The notes beneath the pieces were generated by a model. It searched no databases. It was not told where the DNA came from and was given only the letters and a program-made list of their open reading frames with translations. Position numbers and translations under genes: made by a program. A DNA stretch of 64,000 bases from Patescibacteria group bacterium (GTDB lineage Bacteria; Patescibacteriota; Gracilibacteria; UBA1369; PNNO01): assembly GCA_042568575.1 (NCBI GenBank), contig JBHPIO010000002.1:65447-129446 (forward strand), given 5' to 3'. This document shows positions 1 through 6,570 of the stretch, in pieces. The stretch's first letter is position 1. Each line of letters opens with the position of its first letter.

Positions 1-71
1 TAGTGAAGTTTTTCCCATGTTGCAATTTTGTTAATAAAACAATAGTACATTATAGCAAATTTTGACATTTT

Positions 72-219
72 GCACAACGTCCGCGGCTTGTACGAAGTTG
101 CCGACGAGCGAGATGGTATAATTTTAAACCATCAAAGCGAGGAAGGCAATTTGGGTGAAGGCTTTCGGCTGTGCGAAGCCAGTCCGAAAAAGCCTGAACC
201 GGACAAGCCGCTGTTGTAC
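72..219 (-). repeat. attC-like recombination site 1
   Basis: gcacAAC-gtcc-gcggcttgtacg ... cggacaagccgc-t-GTTgtac; internal hairpins; closely resembles site 8. Confidence 0.85.
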
Positions 220-235
220 GATGTAGCGAAAATTA

Positions 236-499
236 TTAAGAAGTTTTGCTTGGTTTCATCCATTTAATATAACCTCTTAAATACAGAAAAAATAAAACTA
301 TGGAAGTTACACCATTTGCTATACTTCCTATTTGAAAGCTAAATATAAAACCGACTATTCCTGATATCATTCCTACGACGAAACCAATTTTTTTCTTGTC
401 TCCAAGAAGAAAAATTCCTGCAAAAACCGTTAACGTGACTATCCAATCTACGCCATAATACTGGAAAGCATAATGTTTTATTTGTTCCAGAATTCCCAT
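236..499 (-). CDS. Cassette 1: small membrane protein (PnuC/nicotinamide-riboside-transporter-like, ~3 TM)
   Basis: 87 aa, hydrophobic, YYGVDW...GDKKK motif; fills the cassette between sites 1 and 2; family call is tentative. Confidence 0.7.
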   Translation of the reverse strand: MGILEQIKHYAFQYYGVDWIVTLTVFAGIFLLGDKKKIGFVVGMISGIVGFIFSFQIGSIANGVTSIVLFFLYLRGYIKWMKPSKTS

Positions 500-538
500 A
501 GTTTTATTTTATATGAATAATGAAATTTTCGCTATTTC

Positions 539-656
539 GTACAACGTCTGCAAACTATACGAACTTTGACAGTGATATAATACGCCAAAGGCGGATCACT
601 GGCAAAGTTGGGTGAAGCGAGTGAAAGGAGCGAAACCGAATAGTTTGCTGTTATAT
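539..656 (-). repeat. attC-like recombination site 2
   Basis: gtacAAC-gtct-gcaaactatacg ... cgaatagtttgc-t-GTTatat. Confidence 0.85.
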
Positions 657-679
657 GATGTCGTAAATTCCCGACTCTA

Positions 680-1117
680 TTAATCTGATAATGTTTTAGA
701 AAATTTTGTAGAAGCTTCTTGATAACCGAGACCTTTGTAGAAGTCGTGCGCCTCTGTTCGATCTTTTCTACTTGTGACTTCTATTTTAGTAGAGCCGACT
801 TTTGCTGCCTCTTCTTCGAGCTTTTTTACTAATGTTTTCCCAATACCTTGTCTTCTGTATTTTTCTTTGACTATTAAAGTAATTATTCGAGCAGTTTTGC
901 CAGTTTCGTATAAAAAGTTGGTGATTTGTAATTGAGCAACTCCTGCAATTTCTCCTTTGGTTTCAGCAATAATTAGAATTACTTCTGGATTGTCGGTTAG
1001 TGCCTCAATTTTGTTACGAGCAAAAGTCGGCGTGTTAGGATATCCAAATTCAATTAATAATTCTGCTACGCCTTCTGCATCTTTAATTGTTGCTTCTCTG
1101 TAATTGATATCTTCCAT
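680..1117 (-). CDS. Cassette 2: GNAT family N-acetyltransferase
   Basis: Acetyl-CoA motif V..YRRQGIGKTL and AHDFYKGLGY. Confidence 0.9.
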   Translation of the reverse strand: MEDINYREATIKDAEGVAELLIEFGYPNTPTFARNKIEALTDNPEVILIIAETKGEIAGVAQLQITNFLYETGKTARIITLIVKEKYRRQGIGKTLVKKLEEEAAKVGSTKIEVTSRKDRTEAHDFYKGLGYQEASTKFSKTLSD

Positions 1118-1137
1118 AAGATCGAATTTACGATTTC

Positions 1138-1253
1138 ATATAACGTCTAGCACTATGCGATGTTTGGCGATGGTAAAATATCACGAAGTGATACCATCGC
1201 CAAATATAGGTGTAGCGACTGAAAGGAGCGGAACCGAATAGTGCTTGTTGTGC
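1138..1253 (-). repeat. attC-like recombination site 3
   Basis: atatAAC-gtct-agcactatgcg ... cgaatagtgct-t-GTTgtgc. Confidence 0.85.
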
Positions 1254-1270
1254 GATGTGTTGTGCCCGAC

Positions 1271-1711
1271 TTACTTAATCTTCTTTATGTAATGTACGAT
1301 TACGTCGTCTTTTTTGAAACCTAAATTTTTGTGAAATTTCTGGCTATCAACGTTCCTTAACTCTGCGTCTGAGCCGAGCTCTTTGCATCCCTGTTTTTTG
1401 GCCCACTTTTCACCTTGTTCCACAAGCTCTTTGGCAACTCCTTGTTTTCTGTATTTGGGCTTTACATAAATGCCTTCAACATAGCCGACTGGACTAGATG
1501 ATGAACCTTGGACATAATCGTTGCGAAGCGAAAGATTGATGAAGCCCAAATACTCACCCTTTTCATTTTGGGCCAAAAAGTTTGTGTATCTATCTGACTT
1601 TGAAAGTGCCTGAAATTCTTTTTTGAGTGTTTTTTTAGCGTGTGGCCAAAGAGCGAGGCCCATTGATAGCCACTCATTAAAGTTGTCTTCAGAAATTTCA
1701 CAAAAATTCAT
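1271..1711 (-). CDS. Cassette 3: aminoglycoside 6'-N-acetyltransferase AAC(6')-I-like GNAT
   Basis: LWP, SLRNDYVQGSSSSPVGYVEGIYV, ELGSDAELRNVDSQKFH match the AAC(6')-Ic/Iy-type pattern. The ATG at 1711 is preferred because the track's GTG (1732) lies inside the cassette terminal repeat. Confidence 0.8.
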   Translation of the reverse strand: MNFCEISEDNFNEWLSMGLALWPHAKKTLKKEFQALSKSDRYTNFLAQNEKGEYLGFINLSLRNDYVQGSSSSPVGYVEGIYVKPKYRKQGVAKELVEQGEKWAKKQGCKELGSDAELRNVDSQKFHKNLGFKKDDVIVHYIKKIK

Positions 1712-1740
1712 AGTATTGATGATTAAGGGCACAACATTTC

Positions 1741-1858
1741 GTACAACGTTCGCAAACTATACGAACTTGCGACAGGTGTAGAATAGCCGAAGGCGGACAC
1801 CTGAGCAAGTTGGGTGAAGCGAGTGAAAGGAGCGGAACCGAATAGTTTGCTGTTAGGC
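1741..1858 (-). repeat. attC-like recombination site 4
   Basis: gtacAAC-gttc-gcaaactatacg ... cgaatagtttgc-t-GTTaggc (canonical GTTRRRY). Confidence 0.85.
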
Positions 1859-1866
1859 GATGTTAA

Positions 1867-2097
1867 TTATTTTTTCCATTTTGCATATGCCCTAGCATTC
1901 AATGCTATAAGTATTATATTTAAAATTACACCAGGCCATATATGACCCATATAATTTACAGCTATCCATGCGATGTTACCAACAGTGTATATAATAAATG
2001 AATATCTTTTTTTGCTACCAACAAGGAATAGAAAAATAAGTGAACCTGCCATCCCAATCCAATCTAGTCCGTAATAATTTCCCAATATTTCATTCAT
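1867..2097 (-). CDS. Cassette 4: small membrane protein, paralogue of cassette 1 protein
   Basis: 76 aa from ATG 2097 (MNEILGNYYGLDW...GSKKR); the track's upstream extension runs through site 5. Confidence 0.75.
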   Translation of the reverse strand: MNEILGNYYGLDWIGMAGSLIFLFLVGSKKRYSFIIYTVGNIAWIAVNYMGHIWPGVILNIILIALNARAYAKWKK

Positions 2098-2115
2098 ATA
2101 AAAATAATTAATGTT

Positions 2116-2243
2116 GCCTAACGGCCATGAATAACTGAAGTTTGGTGGCGGTATAATTTGGAGCGGAGCGACATACCACCGCCAAATTTGGGAGAACGAA
2201 CGAAGCAAAGCGGAGTGAGTGAACCAGTTATTCATTGTTATGT
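2116..2243 (-). repeat. attC-like recombination site 5
   Basis: gcctAAC-ggcc-atgaataactg ... cagttattcat-t-GTTatgt. Confidence 0.85.
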
Positions 2244-2258
2244 GATGTGACAATAGGG

Positions 2259-2897
2259 TCACTTTGTTAAATGCTCAATCGCTTTTTTCAGTTGTCCGCC
2301 AAAATCGTTGTCCATGTTGAGAGCTTTTAACTTGTACTTCTTTGCTTCTTTGTCAAAAAATTGTCCATAGTAGTTGATCATTTCCGCGATCTTGTTGAGA
2401 GTTTCTTTTTCTTTTGTTTTACGAAGAATCCAGTCGTTTGGAGTTGAACTTTTCTTAAAGTCACGAACCATTTTTTCAACATCAGACTTAAAGAGAAAAA
2501 GAACGCAGAAATGTTTACGTCCGTATTTTTTAATTAGCCGAGCTGCAAGTTGTGGCGTTACATGGTAGCCCTCGACAATATAATCATTGCCATCAGTAAT
2601 TTCGCAGACGGAAAACATATCTATTGCGTCATAGCTAGACTTGGCCTGCTTAATGTAATTATTAGCAATCTGCTTTGGAGTATTGAGTGAATATGTTTCG
2701 TCATTAGTTTTGCCCTTTTGAGCATTATGTGGATAGAGTTTATCCATTTCCGCTTTAGAAGCATATTTTGAAACATATTCACGCGCTACAACTTGCAGCG
2801 TATCAGAAGCAACCCACTGAATGCCGAGCTTCTTGGACAATTTTTTGGCAAGTGTGGTTTTACCACATTTTGGCGGACCGCCGATTAAATAGATCAT
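2259..2897 (-). CDS. Cassette 5: P-loop kinase (2-phosphoglycerate-kinase/AAA-like)
   Basis: N-terminal Walker A GGPPKCGKTT, IVEG Walker B-like motif. Confidence 0.8.
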   Translation of the reverse strand: MIYLIGGPPKCGKTTLAKKLSKKLGIQWVASDTLQVVAREYVSKYASKAEMDKLYPHNAQKGKTNDETYSLNTPKQIANNYIKQAKSSYDAIDMFSVCEITDGNDYIVEGYHVTPQLAARLIKKYGRKHFCVLFLFKSDVEKMVRDFKKSSTPNDWILRKTKEKETLNKIAEMINYYGQFFDKEAKKYKLKALNMDNDFGGQLKKAIEHLTK

Positions 2898-2930
2898 AGT
2901 TTTATTTTAGCAAGACCCTATTGTTATTTC

Positions 2931-3031
2931 ATATAACGTTCGGCGCATATACAAAGTTTACATGCAGCGTAGCGGAATGTAAATTTGGGTGGAGCGACGA
3001 AGGAGCGGAACTGAATATACGCCTGTTATAT
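2931..3031 (-). repeat. attC-like recombination site 6 (shortest)
   Basis: atatAAC-gttc-ggcgcatataca ... tgaatatacgcc-t-GTTatat. Confidence 0.8.
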
Positions 3032-3046
3032 GAAGCACATTTTTTC

Positions 3047-3105
3047 GTTTGGGGGCGGCGCAGAGGGGATGGGGGTGAATGCGCCGCCCCCAAACACCTT
3101 TTTCT
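3047..3105 (+). terminator. Strong GC hairpin (16-bp perfect stem) followed by a T-rich tract
   Basis: gtttgggggcggcgca (3047-3062) / tgcgccgcccccaaac (3080-3095), then acctttttct. Confidence 0.55.
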
Positions 3106-3144
3106 TGTTTTACCTATCTGTGATAAGATTGAAAAGCGTTTTGC

Positions 3145-3173
3145 TTGACAAAACAATTCTATTTATTTATAAT
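3145..3173 (+). promoter_or_regulatory. Consensus sigma70 promoter inside cassette 6
   Basis: TTGACA-17 bp-TATAAT, exact consensus. Confidence 0.85.
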
Positions 3174-3204
3174 TCGATACCATTTACTTTTTAACCGTTT
3201 TATA

Positions 3205-3675
3205 ATGGAAACACAACAAGGAAATTCTGCCGAACAATTAGAAGGAAAATCCACTCAGGAGCTCTTGGATGCACTATGCGAGGTTCAAAAAATCGAACCT
3301 ATATTACTAGATCGAGGTCGTGCTTTTTTGAGAGATGTTTTGAGTAAAGAGGAAAATTTCCCTACAGATAGATTAAATGACTGTCGCGTAAGAGTCGAAG
3401 TAAATGACGGTGGTGGTCTCGTTGTTAGAGTGCCGGTTAATCGATTTGAGGTTGATGGTAGTACTTTAGATGCTCATCCACTTAAACTTGAAATGAAGGA
3501 TCAATGGAGTAATTTGCCCGGAGTTGCTCGTGTGGAGACTGATGGTAGTATGAATAGTGGAATAATGAATTTAGATGTTTATCTTCAATCCGATCAATTA
3601 CCTGAGCAAGATTCATCGCAAGCAGTTGAAGAAGTGCAGGAGGTTGTAGGAAAAGGTCTTAGTCAAAGTGTATAG
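3205..3675 (+). CDS. Cassette 6: acidic hypothetical protein, inverted relative to the array
   Basis: 156 aa from ATG 3205 (METQQG...), downstream of its own promoter. Confidence 0.75.
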   Translation: METQQGNSAEQLEGKSTQELLDALCEVQKIEPILLDRGRAFLRDVLSKEENFPTDRLNDCRVRVEVNDGGGLVVRVPVNRFEVDGSTLDAHPLKLEMKDQWSNLPGVARVETDGSMNSGIMNLDVYLQSDQLPEQDSSQAVEEVQEVVGKGLSQSV

Positions 3676-3688
3676 TTTCAATGGTTTA

Positions 3689-3733
3689 ATAATAGAGATC
3701 GGGATTATTTTAATAACTCCGATCTTTTTATTA
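3689..3733. terminator. Hairpin downstream of cassette 6 gene
   Basis: agagatcggga...tccgatcttt stem with A/T-rich flanks. Confidence 0.5.
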
Positions 3734-3770
3734 TGCCCCCCTCTATCAATAAAGGGAAAAAATGTATTGC

Positions 3771-3893
3771 ATATAACGTTTCGGCATATACGATGTTTGC
3801 CAGTGGTATAATACCGCGAAGCGGTTACCACTGGCAAATATGAGCGAAACGACGACTGAAAGGAGGAGTGTAGCCGTATATGCCGTGTTAAGT
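3771..3893 (-). repeat. attC-like recombination site 7
   Basis: atatAAC-gttt-cggcatatacg ... cgtatatgccg-t-GTTaagt. Confidence 0.85.
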
Positions 3894-3903
3894 GATGTAA
3901 ATT

Positions 3904-4527
3904 TTATTTTTTCTTTGCTAATACCCACCAATGATATTCGTTATCGCCTGGCTGTCCTTCATATTCGCTTTCTGTGATTTCAAAACCAGCCTGAGCAATC
4001 ATTGCCTTATATTTTTCAGGTTCATAATTGCTCCATGCCATTGGTGCTCCGACAAAATCTTTTTCTATACTTACTTCACTACTTGTACCCAATGTTACTA
4101 AAATAACCCCATTATTCTCTAACAAATTATGCATTTTATCAAACAAGGCTTGATGTTCTTCGCGCGGAATATGAAAAATAGAGTAAAAGGCGATGATTGC
4201 GTGGAAACGCTTGCCGCCAAAATCCGTCTTTGAAAAATCACCTTCAATAAAAGTTGCATCTGGTACATTTTTCTTCGCTTCGACAATATGATTGGAGGCA
4301 AAATCTATGCCGGTTACTTCAAAGCCCTTTTCAACAAGGTACTTGTCGAAAGGGATTCCAATACCACAACCCAAATCAAGGACTTTGGCGGCCTTTGGCA
4401 AGAGAACTGCCAGGCGATTCAGATATTTCTTTTCCATTTCATTAGGGTCTGAACTTACGCGGAAATGTCCAGCGTAGTCGCCTTGTTCATAACCTTCTTT
4501 AACGATTTTACGAATATCATTGGTCAT
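3904..4527 (-). CDS. Cassette 7: class I SAM-dependent methyltransferase
   Basis: VLDLGCGIG motif I, GIDF, GDF motifs. Confidence 0.9.
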   Translation of the reverse strand: MTNDIRKIVKEGYEQGDYAGHFRVSSDPNEMEKKYLNRLAVLLPKAAKVLDLGCGIGIPFDKYLVEKGFEVTGIDFASNHIVEAKKNVPDATFIEGDFSKTDFGGKRFHAIIAFYSIFHIPREEHQALFDKMHNLLENNGVILVTLGTSSEVSIEKDFVGAPMAWSNYEPEKYKAMIAQAGFEITESEYEGQPGDNEYHWWVLAKKK

Positions 4528-4546
4528 AAAAAATAAAATTTATTTC

Positions 4547-4690
4547 ACTTAACGGTTGCAAACTATACGAACTTTTTCGCGATGGTATAATAGCGCTTTA
4601 GCGCAACCATTGCAAAAAAAGTTGGGTGAGGGCTTTTGGCTGTGCGAAGCCAGCCGAAAAAAGGCCGAACCGTATAGTTTGCTGTTGTGC
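4547..4690 (-). repeat. attC-like recombination site 8
   Basis: acttAAC-ggtt-gcaaactatacg ... cgtatagtttgc-t-GTTgtgc. Confidence 0.85.
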
Positions 4691-4761
4691 GCTGTTGCGA
4701 AATCAAAATTTACCCGAAGGGTAAATAGAAATTTTGGCGACTAAATTATTTTGTCTAATTC

Positions 4762-4992
4762 TTATTTTTTCGAGGCCATAAGTTCAGTAACTGTTAGTCT
4801 TGCTCTAACTAAATTCCGAATTGTTTCTTCTTCAGGCGTTAGTGTTCCTAAGTCAGCTTTATGGGCGAGAATACTTTGTATGGCACCGGGGAGTTGATCT
4901 TCTCTGCCATCAGCAGTTTCTCTGGCTTTTCCATAACCATCTTTGTACCATCCAAAATTGCCAGATTCGGTTGGACCACCTACAGTAGCCAT
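4762..4992 (-). CDS. Cassette 8 (attI-proximal): hypothetical protein
   Basis: 76 aa ORF inside the cassette, preceded by a candidate promoter. Confidence 0.65.
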   Translation of the reverse strand: MATVGGPTESGNFGWYKDGYGKARETADGREDQLPGAIQSILAHKADLGTLTPEEETIRNLVRARLTVTELMASKK

Positions 4993-5020
4993 ATAATGTT
5001 TGATTATGAATTAAGACTAT

Positions 5021-5048
5021 ATTTTAGCAGAAGAATATTAATATGCAA
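5021..5048 (-). promoter_or_regulatory. Candidate promoter in cassette 8 pointing into the array
   Basis: Minus strand TTGCAT-16 bp-TAAAAT with extended -10 TG. Confidence 0.5.
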
Positions 5049-5089
5049 TATTTGTCGCCAAAATTTCTGTTCTTTTTTTTCGCAATGGC

Positions 5090-5126
5090 GTACAACTCAG
5101 CACTAAGCGTAGTTTACTATAGTTTA
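5090..5126 (-). other. attI-like primary recombination site
   Basis: Last gtacAAC of the array, followed by tc-agcactaagcg (like the left arm of site 3). It has no partner arm, carries a TAGTTTA direct repeat, and is adjacent to the recombinase start. Confidence 0.7.
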
Positions 5127-5188
5127 GAAGAATTTTAGAGTTTTTTTACAATGTTTTGGTACGTTCTGTGCGTATTTTAAGTTTTTTT

Positions 5189-6010
5189 ATGAGCCTTAAA
5201 AGCCAGTTACTGCTTAGGATGGAGCGCGAGATGATTATTAAGAATTATAGCCCCAGGACACAGAAAACCTATATGTACTGTATTGAGAAGTATTTGGAGT
5301 TTGATTTTGGGGCTGTGCGCAGGTGTGGTTTGGATAAAATTCGGGAATTTCTTGTGTTGAAGCAGGAAAGTGGCGTTGGTCCTGTTATGAGGAATTTGTA
5401 TCTTTGTGCCATTAAGTTTTTCTATCGAAGCGCACTGAATCGCCGTAAAACAATACCTATTCCGTATGCTAAACGACCAAAAAGCACGCCTATAACGCTA
5501 ACGCGCGTAGAGGTACTTCAGATGCTGTCCTACATTAACAATTACAAGCATAAATTGATCGTGGCATTGGCTTATGGAGCGGGTTTGAGACTCAGTGAGG
5601 TTACAAGTCTGAAAGTTTATGACATTCATTTACTTGATAAGACAATTCTTGTTAGAAGAGGGAAGGGCGCGAAACGGCGATATACGATTATTCCGGATAA
5701 ACTATGGTGGAAACTCCGTCTTTATGTGAAAAACAGGGATGCGCACAAGTATGTTTTTGAGAGTAATAGGGGAGGAAAGTTACATTCACGCACTGTTCAA
5801 AAGATTTTCAAAAAAGCTCTCAAGAAAGCCGGCATTGAAAAACAAGCCACGTTTCATTCGCTCAGGCATAGTTTTGCTACGCATTTGCTCGAAAATGGAA
5901 CAAATCTGCGATATGTGCAGGCGTTGCTTGGGCATTCAAGTATTAGAACAACTCAAATTTATACTCATGTTGATGATTGCGCAATTAAGACTGTCAAAAG
6001 CCCACTTTAA
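5189..6010 (+). CDS. Tyrosine recombinase, integron-integrase-like (N-terminal SAM-like domain, no IntI-specific insertion)
   Basis: NYSPRTQKTY N-domain; catalytic R (GLRLSE), K (GKGAK), HSLRH, LGH, Y (TQIYTH); C-terminal KSPL as in IntI-type enzymes. Confidence 0.92.
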   Translation: MSLKSQLLLRMEREMIIKNYSPRTQKTYMYCIEKYLEFDFGAVRRCGLDKIREFLVLKQESGVGPVMRNLYLCAIKFFYRSALNRRKTIPIPYAKRPKSTPITLTRVEVLQMLSYINNYKHKLIVALAYGAGLRLSEVTSLKVYDIHLLDKTILVRRGKGAKRRYTIIPDKLWWKLRLYVKNRDAHKYVFESNRGGKLHSRTVQKIFKKALKKAGIEKQATFHSLRHSFATHLLENGTNLRYVQALLGHSSIRTTQIYTHVDDCAIKTVKSPL

Positions 6011-6075
6011 ATCTTTATAAGATTGACAAGATGCATGTCAATATTATAAAGTGCATCTCCTATTAAAAATATATC

Positions 6076-6570
6076 ATGACAAGACGTCGCCCATCTGAGG
6101 GAGAAAAAGACCTGATTCAACGAGGATTAGTTGTATTAAAAGAAATCTATGAGCATCCTGAAAGTGCTAATGTCCATAGCGCGAGAGGTAGAATACTATC
6201 AAGAGTATTACTTGTAATGAATGGTCAGACAGTAGGTGATTTATACAGATTGATGGTTGTTGCAAGTTATCAGCCTACTGATGCGGACGCAATTTTAACA
6301 GCTTTAAATAGCAGTACTGGATTGCGCGAATTTGAACAATATTTGTTGGATTGCGATTCTGACGATCTGCGAGCGACTATTTTAAAAACATTTCCAACTC
6401 AAGAATCAAAGCAAGCGGCATTGGAATATTTAACTGCTGATGAAGATGGCAGAATTAGATTTCACCACAAAGGATACCTTGTTACAGAAGAACAACTTGC
6501 ATACTTAAACGAACTCTTGAGTTCAAGAGATTTACAAGAAGTACTTGAAATTCTATACAAACAAATTTAA
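6076..6570 (+). CDS. Hypothetical protein
   Basis: 164 aa ORF with TTGACA (6023) upstream; no recognisable motif. Confidence 0.65.
   Translation: MTRRRPSEGEKDLIQRGLVVLKEIYEHPESANVHSARGRILSRVLLVMNGQTVGDLYRLMVVASYQPTDADAILTALNSSTGLREFEQYLLDCDSDDLRATILKTFPTQESKQAALEYLTADEDGRIRFHHKGYLVTEEQLAYLNELLSSRDLQEVLEILYKQI

What the first reader, a model, noticed from the sequence alone, without database searches (positions are those of the whole stretch)
213..5096. Every cassette is bracketed by its own ~20-25 bp terminal inverted repeat with a fixed 2-nt break
Seen in all 8 cassettes (left end / right end): gttgtacga-tg-tagcgaaaatt / aattttcgcta-tt-tcgtacaac; gttatatga-tg-tcgtaaattc / gaatttacga-tt-tcatataac; gttgtgcga-tg-tgttgtgccc / gggcacaaca-tt-tcgtacaac; gttaggcga-tg-ttaattatttt / aaaataattaa-tg-ttgcctaac; gttatgtga-tg-tgacaatagggtc / gaccctattgtta-tt-tcatataac; gttatatga-ag-cacattttttc / gaaaaaatgta-tt-gcatataac; gttaagtga-tg-taaattttattttt / aaaaataaaattta-tt-tcacttaac; gttgtgcgc-tg-ttgcgaaa / tttcgcaa-tg-gcgtacaac. 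The outer arm sequence differs per cassette but always pairs with the same cassette's other end, never with the neighbour. Canonical cassettes need only the 7-bp R''/R' match. Inference: the units move as circles with crossover at AAC/GTT. The site of a free circle would fold into a stem about 20 bp longer than the hybrid site in the array. That could be a built-in directionality switch (integration favoured over excision) or a footprint of how cassettes are created.
Basis: partly seen in the sequence, partly recalled or inferred. Interest (0 to 1): 0.88.

Follow-up and report, generated by a model that had tools for sequence, protein, structure and literature searches.

The report
Self-pairing ends of integron-like cassettes
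In this small candidate-phyla-radiation genome, each gene cassette of an integron-like array carries ends that pair only with each other, so its recombination hairpin is complete only once the cassette is cut out as a circle; ordinary integrons are not known to do this.

Summary
All 8 window cassettes, and 3 more left of the window, have own-end inverted repeats: GTTRNRYGA-TG-T plus a cassette-specific 5-15 nt arm, against its complement ending A-TT-TCRYNYAAC. A covariance model of the 87-134 nt sites between the genes finds them in 48 of 61 related genomes. In 109 distinct cassettes from 18 genomes, 79 keep the outer arm, against 2.7% of mismatched controls and 1 of 133 sites as they stand in the arrays.

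Nine duplicated cassettes show that the mobile unit is gene plus one site, with the crossover inside AAC, as in integrons. The window + strand is the bottom strand.

The "2-nt break" is a conserved T.T mismatch plus a G.T wobble on that strand. In 13 of 79 cassettes a 17-65 nt insert replaces it.

Circularising in silico stabilises the bottom-strand fold by a median 12 kcal/mol and raises the pairing probability of the crossover triplet from 0.44 to 0.97.

The neighbouring recombinase is Xer-like and lacks the IntI-specific domain.

Best reading: the repeats are an extended stem of the circular cassette's attC-like site, kept by selection. The direction of any bias between integration and excision is untested. 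Verdict: new variant of a known kind.

The parts
76..215 (+). attC-like site s0 (AAC 76-78 to GTT 213-215; 134 nt between them)
   Evidence: Covariance model R1 hit 64-224, 84.9 bits; boundaries
78..544 (-). Cassette 1 as a mobile unit (C of AAC, site s0, left arm, ORF 236-499 on the - strand, right arm, AA). Arms are 213-234 and 524-545.
   Evidence: Arms match 20 of 22 with the break at positions 10-11. The unit is defined by analogy with the duplicate cassettes. ORF has a weak PnuC/NMN_transporter match.
543..652 (+). attC-like site s1
   Evidence: R1 hit 531-661, 138.4 bits
545..1143 (-). Cassette 2 (GNAT acetyltransferase ORF 680-1117 on the - strand). Arms are 650-670 and 1124-1144.
   Evidence: The circle fold has dG -37.2 against -26.1 kcal/mol for the array site.
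1142..1249 (+). attC-like site s2
   Evidence: R1 hit 1130-1258, 126.5 bits
1144..1746 (-). Cassette 3 (GNAT ORF 1271-1732 on the - strand). Arms are 1247-1267 and 1727-1747.
1745..1854 (+). attC-like site s3
   Evidence: R1 hit 1733-1863, 125.8 bits
1747..2121 (-). Cassette 4 (small membrane-protein-like ORF within 1867-2262; the listed ORF overruns the right arm and site s4, so the true start is probably internal). Arms are 1852-1874 and 2100-2122.
2120..2239 (+). attC-like site s4
   Evidence: R1 hit 2108-2248, 83.3 bits
2122..2936 (-). Cassette 5 (P-loop/AAA-like ORF 2259-2897 on the - strand). Arms are 2237-2260 and 2914-2937.
2935..3027 (+). attC-like site s5 (shortest, 87 nt between AAC and GTT)
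   Evidence: R1 hit 2923-3036, 92.6 bits
2937..3776 (.). Cassette 6. Its ORF is on the + strand (within 3145-3675) behind a perfect TTGACA-17-TATAAT at 3145-3173. Arms are 3025-3046 and 3756-3777, with an irregular break.
3775..3889 (+). attC-like site s6
   Evidence: R1 hit 3763-3898, 111.7 bits
3777..4552 (-). Cassette 7 (methyltransferase ORF 3904-4527 on the - strand). Arms are 3887-3912 and 4528-4553, the longest at 26 nt.
4551..4686 (+). attC-like site s7
   Evidence: R1 hit 4539-4695, 106.6 bits
4553..5095 (-). Cassette 8, next to the integrase (ORF 4762-4992 on the - strand, no family). Arms are 4684-4702 and 5078-5096.
5094..5155 (.). Presumed attI-side junction: AAC followed by T, not G, then non-repeated sequence up to the integrase gene
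   Evidence: Sequence; inference from position
5156..6010 (+). Tyrosine recombinase, 284 aa, Xer/IntI-like, divergent from the cassette genes; lacks the IntI-specific domain
   Evidence: NF040815 220.8 bits. TIGR02249 195.2 bits (cut-off 265), in two stretches. Aligns to IntI4 (2a3v) 3-199 and 241-317 only. TIGR02249 profile positions 183-236 are unmatched.

Best explanation
The array is an integron-like cassette array and the window + strand is its bottom strand.

Each mobile unit runs C, then an 87-134 nt structured site, then GTT, the left arm, the gene, the right arm, and AA. The crossover lies inside AAC.

The 'terminal inverted repeats' are the two halves of the base of the hairpin that the cassette's attC-like site forms once the cassette is a circle. 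They have two parts:
- A conserved 12-nt recombinase arm: 5' A-TT-TCRYNYAAC paired with GTTRNRYGA-TG-T. On the bottom strand it contains a T.T mismatch next to a G.T wobble, about 10 bp from the cleavage point.
- A cassette-specific clamp helix, median 12 bp.

In the array each site borrows its AAC arm from the neighbouring cassette. There the clamp cannot form and the crossover helix is often weak.

I infer that selection on recombination keeps the clamp. It makes the free cassette's bottom strand fold into the recombinogenic shape almost always, so the circle is a much better substrate for the neighbouring Xer-like recombinase than the sites in the array. The T.T/G.T irregularity marks the bottom strand; on the top strand it becomes A.A plus C.A.

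Shown: the anatomy, the unit boundaries, the covariation, and the conservation across relatives.
Computed only: the folding difference.
Inferred: that the recombinase uses the folded strand, and that the clamp biases the reaction toward capture and retention.
For: - Own-end pairing: 8 of 8 window cassettes and 3 of 3 more outside the window.
- With a 12-nt probe allowing up to 2 mismatches, 79 of 109 distinct cassettes keep the arm, against 58 of 2180 non-own controls. Only 1 of 133 array sites reaches 8 of 10.
- The pairing profile uses all four bases at positions 12-19.
- 18 of 19 locus sets have at least one such cassette.
- The design recurs next to recombinases only 43-44% identical, with shorter sites: L041 has one exact 12 of 12 match after a 15-nt insert and one match by eye that needs a 1-nt bulge (its gap-free probe has 3 mismatches). 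L040 has 1 clear, 1 marginal and 1 absent of 3.
- Unit boundaries: in 9 of 9 duplicate pairs identity stops 0-2 nt left of the left site's AAC. It stops 1-8 nt right of the right AAC in 8 pairs; in the ninth it runs 32 nt, presumably because the next cassette is duplicated too.
- 95 of 115 longest ORFs lie on the strand opposite the model strand.
- G follows AAC in all 10 sites of alignment A2.
- The site's inner helices covary: 94.4% of cells paired against 72.8% in shuffles, and 23 of 27 pairs change on both sides. That alignment is fitted to the model, so it leans towards the structure.
- The break is T/A at position 10 in 48 of 66 cassettes and G/A at position 11 in 62 of 66. Own ends are Watson-Crick paired there in 19% and 8% of cases, below background.
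- Folding of 110 cassettes with DNA parameters: circle minus array has a median of -12.0 kcal/mol and is negative in 108. The circle's bottom strand beats its top strand in 107.
- P(AAC:GTT paired) has a median of 0.968 in the circle against 0.436 in the array. It is at least 0.9 in 98 circles against 23 array sites.
- In one diverged duplicate pair, all 40 substitutions lie at positions 32-374 of 405. None lies in either arm or in the 103-nt site.
- ORF-less 100-nt cassettes also keep a 10-bp arm.
- Three class 1 cassettes of plasmid R46 show no extension: 1-3 of 10 at positions 12-21.
Against: - There is no experiment and there are no reads. Folding energies ignore proteins and single-strand-binding protein, and they use 28-nt flanks of my choosing.
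- 30 of 109 cassettes fail the 12-nt test. Many of these have shorter arms, but some have none.
- Among homologous cassettes I found only one clear compensatory change, A-T to T-A. In that family the arm sequence TTGGGCTGNTTTT is itself conserved although the proteins are only 38-44% identical. That fits a sequence-specific role, or exchange of a site-plus-arms module, as well as it fits selection for pairing.
- Mismatches outside the break show only a weak wobble bias toward the bottom strand (21 against 12).
- A more stable circle hairpin could equally be read as driving excision rather than integration.
- The genomes are relatives, so cassette counts are not independent events.
Confidence: 0.55

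Rival explanations
1. The arms act in the integrated array, not in the circle. On the single-stranded bottom strand (for example the lagging-strand template) the two arms of one cassette pair across the gene. That loops the gene out and brings the cassette's two crossover points together. The recombinase then excises exactly that cassette, so the arms address and promote excision.
For: It rests on the same covariation and the same bottom-strand asymmetry. In the array the AAC arm is often poorly paired with its hybrid partner: inner matches of at least 5 of 6 occur in 20 of 133 sites, and median P is 0.436. The own arm is therefore the better partner. The product of excision is stabilised by about 12 kcal/mol.
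Against: Pairing across 250-2700 nt competes with local hairpins. The composite site would have a strand discontinuity at the scissile position. Nothing in my data separates this reading from the circle model.
Confidence: 0.2
2. The arms are a footprint of how cassettes are made, or of a site-plus-arms scaffold into which genes are placed. They have no present function.
For: Inverted repeats of arbitrary sequence bracket the gene. ORF-less 100-nt cassettes with arms exist. One arm sequence is shared by cassettes whose proteins are 38-44% identical.
Against: Arms and site carry 0 substitutions where the rest of the cassette has 40. Pairing persists in lineages whose recombinases are only 43-44% identical. 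Positions 10-11 are kept unpaired at rates below background. A neutral footprint should decay.
Confidence: 0.15
3. The arms act in RNA. Either the 5' and 3' untranslated regions of a cassette mRNA pair, or an antisense transcript does, to control expression or stability.
For: The right arm lies a median of 24 nt upstream of the start codon and the left arm a median of 2 nt from the stop codon. The sites carry promoter-like motifs on both strands.
Against: On the mRNA strand the break is A.A plus C.A, and that strand folds less well in 107 of 110 cases. ORF-less cassettes keep the arms. The arms are continuous with the recombination core GTT/AAC.
Confidence: 0.06
4. The arms are inverted recombination sites for flipping the gene (an invertible cassette), or they are transposon terminal repeats.
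For: They are 19-26 bp inverted repeats around a gene, next to a tyrosine recombinase. 20 of 115 longest ORFs lie on the other strand.
Against: Duplicate cassettes show that the mobile unit ends in AAC and includes one site on one side only. No target duplication is seen. In cassettes with a reversed ORF the break letters are not swapped between the arms. The arm sequence is cassette-specific, unlike a recombinase or transposase binding site.
Confidence: 0.03

Closest known systems
Canonical integron attC sites (class 1 attCs; long chromosomal attCs such as the Vibrio cholerae repeats)
   Same: - An imperfect palindrome lies downstream of each promoterless gene.
- AAC/GTT boxes sit at its boundaries and a G follows AAC.
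- The crossover is between A and C of the bottom-strand AAC.
- The first bases of the integrated cassette complete its own R box when it circularises.
- The L stem covaries, and there is a branched terminal structure.
- The recombinase gene is divergent from the array.
   Basis: passages of PMC2727003 and PMC7439510.
   Different: - Complementarity between a cassette's own ends runs 12-19 nt beyond the 7-nt R box. It includes a conserved T.T/G.T irregularity and a cassette-specific helix.
- Three class 1 cassettes checked here have none of this.
- No single extrahelical bases are predicted. A 3-nt bulge sits between R and L on the 5' arm and a 1x1 A.A mismatch sits in the L stem.
- The recombinase lacks the IntI-specific domain.
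Xer recombinases acting on a folded single strand (integration of the CTX phage of Vibrio by XerCD) - recalled, not from a call
   Same: A Xer-type enzyme without the IntI extra helix uses a hairpin of single-stranded DNA that mimics a duplex site, and replication completes the event. The long, almost fully paired stem here looks more duplex-like than a canonical attC.
   Different: Here there are arrays of many cassettes with a dedicated neighbouring recombinase, a site that differs from cassette to cassette, and no phage.
pdif modules of Acinetobacter plasmids (genes flanked by inversely oriented XerC/XerD sites) - recalled, not from a call
   Same: Genes are bracketed by inverted recombinase-site-like repeats, with Xer-family enzymes implicated.
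   Different: pdif sites are conserved 28-bp duplex sites of the form 11-6-11. Here the outer arms are unique to each cassette, a 87-134 nt structured site lies between units, and the unit boundary is in AAC on one side of that site.
Archaeal XerA / dif
   Same: The best NCBIfam model for the recombinase is recomb_XerA_Arch (220.8 bits, cut-off 220). The closest solved structures are XerA-like (4a8e, 5hxy).
   Different: XerA resolves chromosome dimers at a single dif site. This gene sits beside an 11-cassette array, and its close relatives (63-83% identical) have the same sites upstream.

Membership tests
Integron | Tyrosine recombinase gene adjacent to, and divergent from, the cassette array | tested here: met
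   Gene at 5156-6010 on the + strand; Phage_integrase and SAM_4 domains. Cassette ORFs are on the - strand.
Integron | IntI-specific additional domain around patch III (called defining in the PMC9668308 passage) | tested here: not met
   TIGR02249 scores 195.2 bits, below the cut-off of 265, and matches in two stretches. IntI4 residues about 200-240 have no counterpart. Profile positions 183-236 are unmatched.
Integron | attC: an imperfect palindrome with R''/R' boxes (RYYYAAC / GTTRRRY) at its boundaries and a G after the bottom-strand AAC | tested here: met
   AAC, G and GTT are invariant in 10 of 10 sites. The boxes read RYNYAAC / GTTRNRY, looser than the consensus.
Integron | [quoted passage not shown] | tested here: met
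   In 9 of 9 duplicate cassette pairs the boundaries fall in AAC and the site on one side is included. Resolution is to within 0-2 nt.
Integron | Extrahelical bases (typically G and T) in the folded bottom strand | tested here: inconclusive
   Predicted folds show no single-base bulges on the 3' arm. They show a 3-nt bulge on the 5' arm and an A.A mismatch. This is prediction only.
Integron | Covarying L stem and a variable terminal structure | tested here: met
   All 9 pairs of the L helix change on both sides, with 96.6% of cells paired. The alignment is fitted to the model. On the independent MAFFT alignment, 15 of 27 pairs are compensatory.
Integron | Genes mostly co-oriented, with attC downstream of each | tested here: met
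   95 of 115 longest ORFs are on the strand opposite the model strand. In the window it is 7 of 8.
Integron | The recombinase recombines the folded bottom strand of attC with attI | not testable with these tools
   Needs an assay. The bottom strand folds better than the top in 107 of 110 cases, which is only suggestive.
Xer/dif-type modules (pdif) | A conserved 28-bp duplex site (11-6-11) in inverse orientation on both sides of the module | tested here: not met
   Only about 12 nt of each arm is conserved. No inverted partner arm lies 6-8 bp from the AAC. The outer arms are cassette-specific.
Transposon or MITE with terminal inverted repeats | The repeats are the ends of the mobile unit, with a target-site duplication | tested here: not met
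   The unit extends beyond the left repeat to include the whole site and ends in AAC. There is no duplication.

The most novel reading that the evidence does not exclude
Candidate-phyla-radiation bacteria carry a separate lineage of integrons in which a Xer-like recombinase without the IntI helix recombines a hairpin that only becomes complete on circularisation. In this reading the conserved T.T/G.T irregularity replaces the extrahelical bases as the mark that selects the strand. The cassette-specific clamp acts as a topological licence: it tells free cassettes (good substrates) from integrated ones (locked), which gives built-in directionality without accessory proteins. The shared site-plus-arms modules and the ORF-less cassettes would then be the scaffolds from which new cassettes arise.
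Probability: 0.3. Interest if true: 0.85.

Novelty: new variant of a known kind. Interest (0 to 1): 0.7.

Why it matters
Two open questions in the integron field are how cassettes are formed and what sets the balance between capture and loss. This finding gives a natural system that bears on both.

The recombination site differs physically between the free and the integrated state, by a helix whose sequence is free to vary. That makes directionality directly testable with matched, scrambled or repaired arms.

It also suggests that single-strand cassette recombination may not need the IntI-specific domain. That bears on how integron integrases evolved from Xer enzymes.

The system is common in the order: sites were found in 48 of 61 genomes searched. 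It would presumably escape integron surveys that require the canonical IntI domain; I could not run such a survey tool here. If so, small-genome symbionts may have an unrecognised gene-shuffling platform.

My searches of the held library found no paper that describes integrons in these bacteria or an attC stem that extends beyond the R box.

Tried and rejected
- Group II intron idea. About a dozen long cassettes have a left end that departs after position 9, and I suspected an attC-targeting intron. Rfam at gathering thresholds found nothing in five such loci, and nothing in window 1-6200 at E up to 0.1. The departures turned out to be 17-65 nt purine-rich inserts at the break, after which the outer arm resumes.
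- Inversion switch and transposon repeats. Rejected from the duplicate-cassette boundaries.
- mRNA pairing. Judged unlikely from the strand asymmetry.
- Wobble bias outside the break. Weak: 21 against 12, with 36 transversions. I do not use it as evidence.
- Distant integrase relatives. A strict palindrome scan of nine loci found nothing. A repeat search then found shorter sites in L040 and L041. The other seven loci were not followed up.
- CM search of 19 loci. It gave strong hits only upstream of recombinases 63-83% identical. The L035 hits have the same scores as hits already counted, so I did not count them again.
- Canonical control. It is limited to 3 distinct class 1 cassettes of R46. 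No Vibrio-type chromosomal integron was available; the control genomes hold none.
- Sequencing runs. None was listed for window 1-6100 and no RNA holder was listed.
- My own slips. The first filter printed nothing because it was too strict. The coordinates were off by one, and I corrected them.
- Papers. I saw passages of PMC2727003, PMC9668308 and PMC7439510. Of all other papers I saw only search listings and abstract starts.
- From recall only: CTX-phage/XerCD, pdif modules, Messier and Roy 2001 (seen only as a reference line), and work on cassette excision dynamics.

Full report
WHAT IS THERE. Window 1-5096 is the integrase-proximal part of a cassette array. Between the genes, which are mostly on the - strand, lie eight related elements. 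Each begins with AAC and ends with GTT, with 87-134 nt between them. A 284-aa tyrosine recombinase gene follows at 5156-6010 on the + strand. The window is G000:C12:65447-129446 of a 1.2 Mb, 31-contig genome with 38.6% G+C in the window. The recombinase's nearest named relatives are from Patescibacteria-group, Peribacteria and Peregrinibacteria assemblies. I therefore take the organism to be a candidate-phyla-radiation bacterium; that is an inference.

CHECK OF THE OBSERVATION. All eight quoted pairs are present. Comparing each left end with the reverse complement of the same cassette's right end gives three zones. Positions 1-9 (GTTRNRYGA) match. Positions 10-11 differ: TG against AA or CA. 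Positions 12 onward match up to position 19-26. Outer-arm matches are 8-10 of 10 for own ends and 0-8 of 10 for the 56 non-own combinations. A covariance model built from ten sites finds 11 sites in this contig plus one weak hit elsewhere in the genome. The array therefore continues about 1.4 kb to the left of the window. The three extra cassettes show the same design with outer arms of 5, 7 and 13 of 14 nt.

GENERALITY. The model finds sites in 48 of 61 genomes of the same order, G000 included. I fetched 20 further stretches, beside the window and L001. The model gave 145 matches in the 22 sources, two of them from an overlap between loci. This yielded 115 cassettes, 109 of them distinct.
- At least 8 of 10 outer matches without any shift: 66 of 109 own pairs, 109 of 10562 cross-genome non-own pairs, and 1 of 133 sites as they stand in the arrays.
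- A 12-nt probe from the right arm, searched within the first 110 nt of the left side, matches with at most 2 mismatches in 79 of 109 own cases and 58 of 2180 controls.
- 18 of 19 locus sets have at least one positive.
- Own-end pairing by position is 76-80% at positions 12-19, with all four bases used, and reaches background near position 25. It is 19% at position 10 and 8% at position 11, below background, so the break is itself maintained.
- The break is 2 nt in 62 of the 79 cassettes, 3 nt in 4, and a 17-65 nt purine-rich insert in 13.
- Two more distant lineages, whose recombinases are 43-44% identical and whose sites are shorter, keep the architecture. In L041 both cassettes match 9 of 9 at the inner positions. 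One of them has an exact 12 of 12 outer arm after a 15-nt insert. The other matches by eye with a 1-nt bulge, and its gap-free probe has 3 mismatches. L040 has 1 clear, 1 marginal and 1 absent of 3.
- Three class 1 cassettes of plasmid R46 match at the R box only.

WHAT THE MOBILE UNIT IS. Nine pairs of duplicated cassettes sit in different array contexts. In all nine, identity stops 0-2 nt to the left of the AAC of the site on the left. It stops 1-8 nt beyond the AAC on the right, except in one pair where the next cassette is duplicated too. The unit is therefore C-site-GTT-left arm-gene-right arm-AA, with a crossover inside AAC. [quoted passage not shown]
- the G that follows AAC in every site;
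- 95 of 115 longest ORFs on the opposite strand;
- the divergent recombinase gene.
The window + strand is therefore the bottom strand. Both arms lie within one unit, so they meet only when the unit is circular.

THE SITE. The inner helices covary strongly. On the MAFFT alignment 15 of 27 pairs carry compensatory changes. On the model-fitted alignment of 143 distinct sites 94.4% of cells are paired against 72.8% in shuffles; that alignment leans toward the structure. Predicted bottom-strand folds of the circular form show, from the base upward:
- the cassette-specific helix;
- a single T.T mismatch beside a G.T wobble;
- about 10 bp that include AAC:GTT;
- a 3-nt bulge on the 5' arm;
- a 9+2 bp L stem with an A.A mismatch;
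- a branched top.
No single extrahelical bases are predicted. Position 10 is T against A in 48 of 66 cassettes and position 11 is G against A in 62 of 66. That is T.T plus G.T on the bottom strand and A.A plus C.A on the top strand.

FOLDING. I used DNA parameters and 28-nt flanks on 110 cassettes.
- The circle junction is more stable than the array site by a median of 12.0 kcal/mol (mean 11.3), and it is more stable in 108 of 110.
- The circle's bottom strand is more stable than its top strand in 107 of 110, by a median of 5.4 kcal/mol.
- The ensemble probability that the AAC:GTT triplet is paired has a median of 0.968 in the circle and 0.436 in the array. It is at least 0.9 in 98 circles against 23 array sites of 110.
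These are computations on naked DNA.

THE RECOMBINASE. The best family is recomb_XerA_Arch, at 220.8 bits against a cut-off of 220. The integron-integrase model scores 195.2 bits, below its cut-off of 265, and matches in two stretches. Against IntI4 (2a3v) the protein aligns to residues 3-199 and 241-317 only. Profile positions 183-236 of TIGR02249 are unmatched. The missing part is the IntI-specific domain that a passage of PMC9668308 calls defining. From the abstract start of PMC7790495 in a search listing, integron integrases are said to have gained single-strand recombination with the I2 helix. Close relatives of this recombinase (63-83% identical) have the same sites upstream on the same strand.

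MECHANISM. I commit, at about 0.55, to this reading. The repeats are the base of the attC-like hairpin of the circular cassette. They consist of a 12-nt recombinase arm with a strand-marking T.T/G.T irregularity, plus a sequence-free clamp. Selection keeps them because they make the free cassette fold into the recombinogenic form.

Three results speak for selection rather than a neutral footprint. In one duplicate pair, all 40 substitutions fall outside both arms and the 103-nt site. The design persists in distant lineages. Positions 10-11 are kept unpaired.

Four things speak against certainty. No experiment or read evidence exists. Thirty of 109 cassettes fail the 12-nt test. I saw only one compensatory change among homologous cassettes. 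One arm sequence is conserved across cassettes whose proteins are 38-44% identical, which could mean a sequence-specific role or module exchange.

The direction of the bias is open. Better folding of the circle should favour capture, but a more stable product could also favour excision. The arms could also pair across the gene in the single-stranded array and address excision (rival, 0.2). The other rivals are footprint only (0.15), an RNA role (0.06), and inversion or transposon repeats (0.03).

COMPARISON AND NOVELTY. The system works like an integron. It meets the tests for array organisation, site anatomy and crossover point. It fails the test for the IntI-specific domain, and the test for extrahelical bases is inconclusive. 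I therefore call it integron-like and do not file it as a canonical member. Six full-text searches found no description of integrons in these bacteria or of an attC stem that extends beyond the R box. The library lacks most subscription papers, and supplements were closed. I rate it a new variant of a known kind, with interest 0.7.

Noticed in passing
window 5156-6010; relatives L034, L035, L038: The array's recombinase is Xer/XerA-like and lacks the IntI-specific domain, yet sits beside an 11-cassette array. Sites of this type occur in 48 of 61 genomes of the order.
   Followed up: partly
loci of relatives, e.g. L017, L019, L022, L032, L028; also L040 and L041: In 13 of 79 cassettes the 2-nt break is replaced by a 17-65 nt purine-rich insert with GAGCG/AAGCG-type repeats on the left-arm side. 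The insert resembles the unpaired purine-rich stretch inside the sites. Its function is unknown.
   Followed up: partly
window 577-605, 3808-3837, 4587-4616 (- strand), and the first hairpin of most sites: The sites carry promoter-like motifs. TTGCCA-17/18-TATTAT on the gene strand points at the next cassette and occurs in 21 of 132 distinct sites, against 3 of 2640 shuffles. TGNTA(T/A/G)AAT on the bottom strand occurs in 59 of 132 sites, against 21 of 2640 shuffles.
   Followed up: partly
window 3145-3675: Cassette 6 carries its ORF on the opposite strand, behind a perfect TTGACA-17-TATAAT at 3145-3173 (12 of 12). There is no family match for the 176-aa frame.
   Followed up: no
L001 18560-18581 (left end of the array): The flank left of the last site ends in ATTGCACCTAAC, the same arm motif as the cassette right ends. 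It may be the other half of the original attI (inference).
   Followed up: no
window 236-499 and 1867-2262: Two separate cassettes give weak, below-threshold matches to different parts of the NMN transporter (PnuC) profile: positions 4-69 and 106-175 of 175.
   Followed up: no
G006 stretch (L014/L015): An ORF-less cassette with only 100 nt between GTT and AAC occurs three times in one array. It keeps a 10-bp outer arm and has a long (184-185 nt) site.
   Followed up: partly
cassettes in G006, G048 and G007 (L014/L015, L021, L032): Four cassettes whose proteins are only 38-44% identical (one pair 72% over 29 residues) share the outer-arm sequence TTGGGCTGNTTTT on both arms. One A-T to T-A swap is seen.
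   Followed up: partly
G000:C1:53885-54002 (- strand): A lone weak match to the site model (28.4 bits, E 0.003) outside the array.
   Followed up: no
L040 3969-4894: Seven tandem copies of a roughly 83-nt unit, spaced 102-216 nt apart, lie inside a long 'cassette' upstream of a distant recombinase relative.
   Followed up: no
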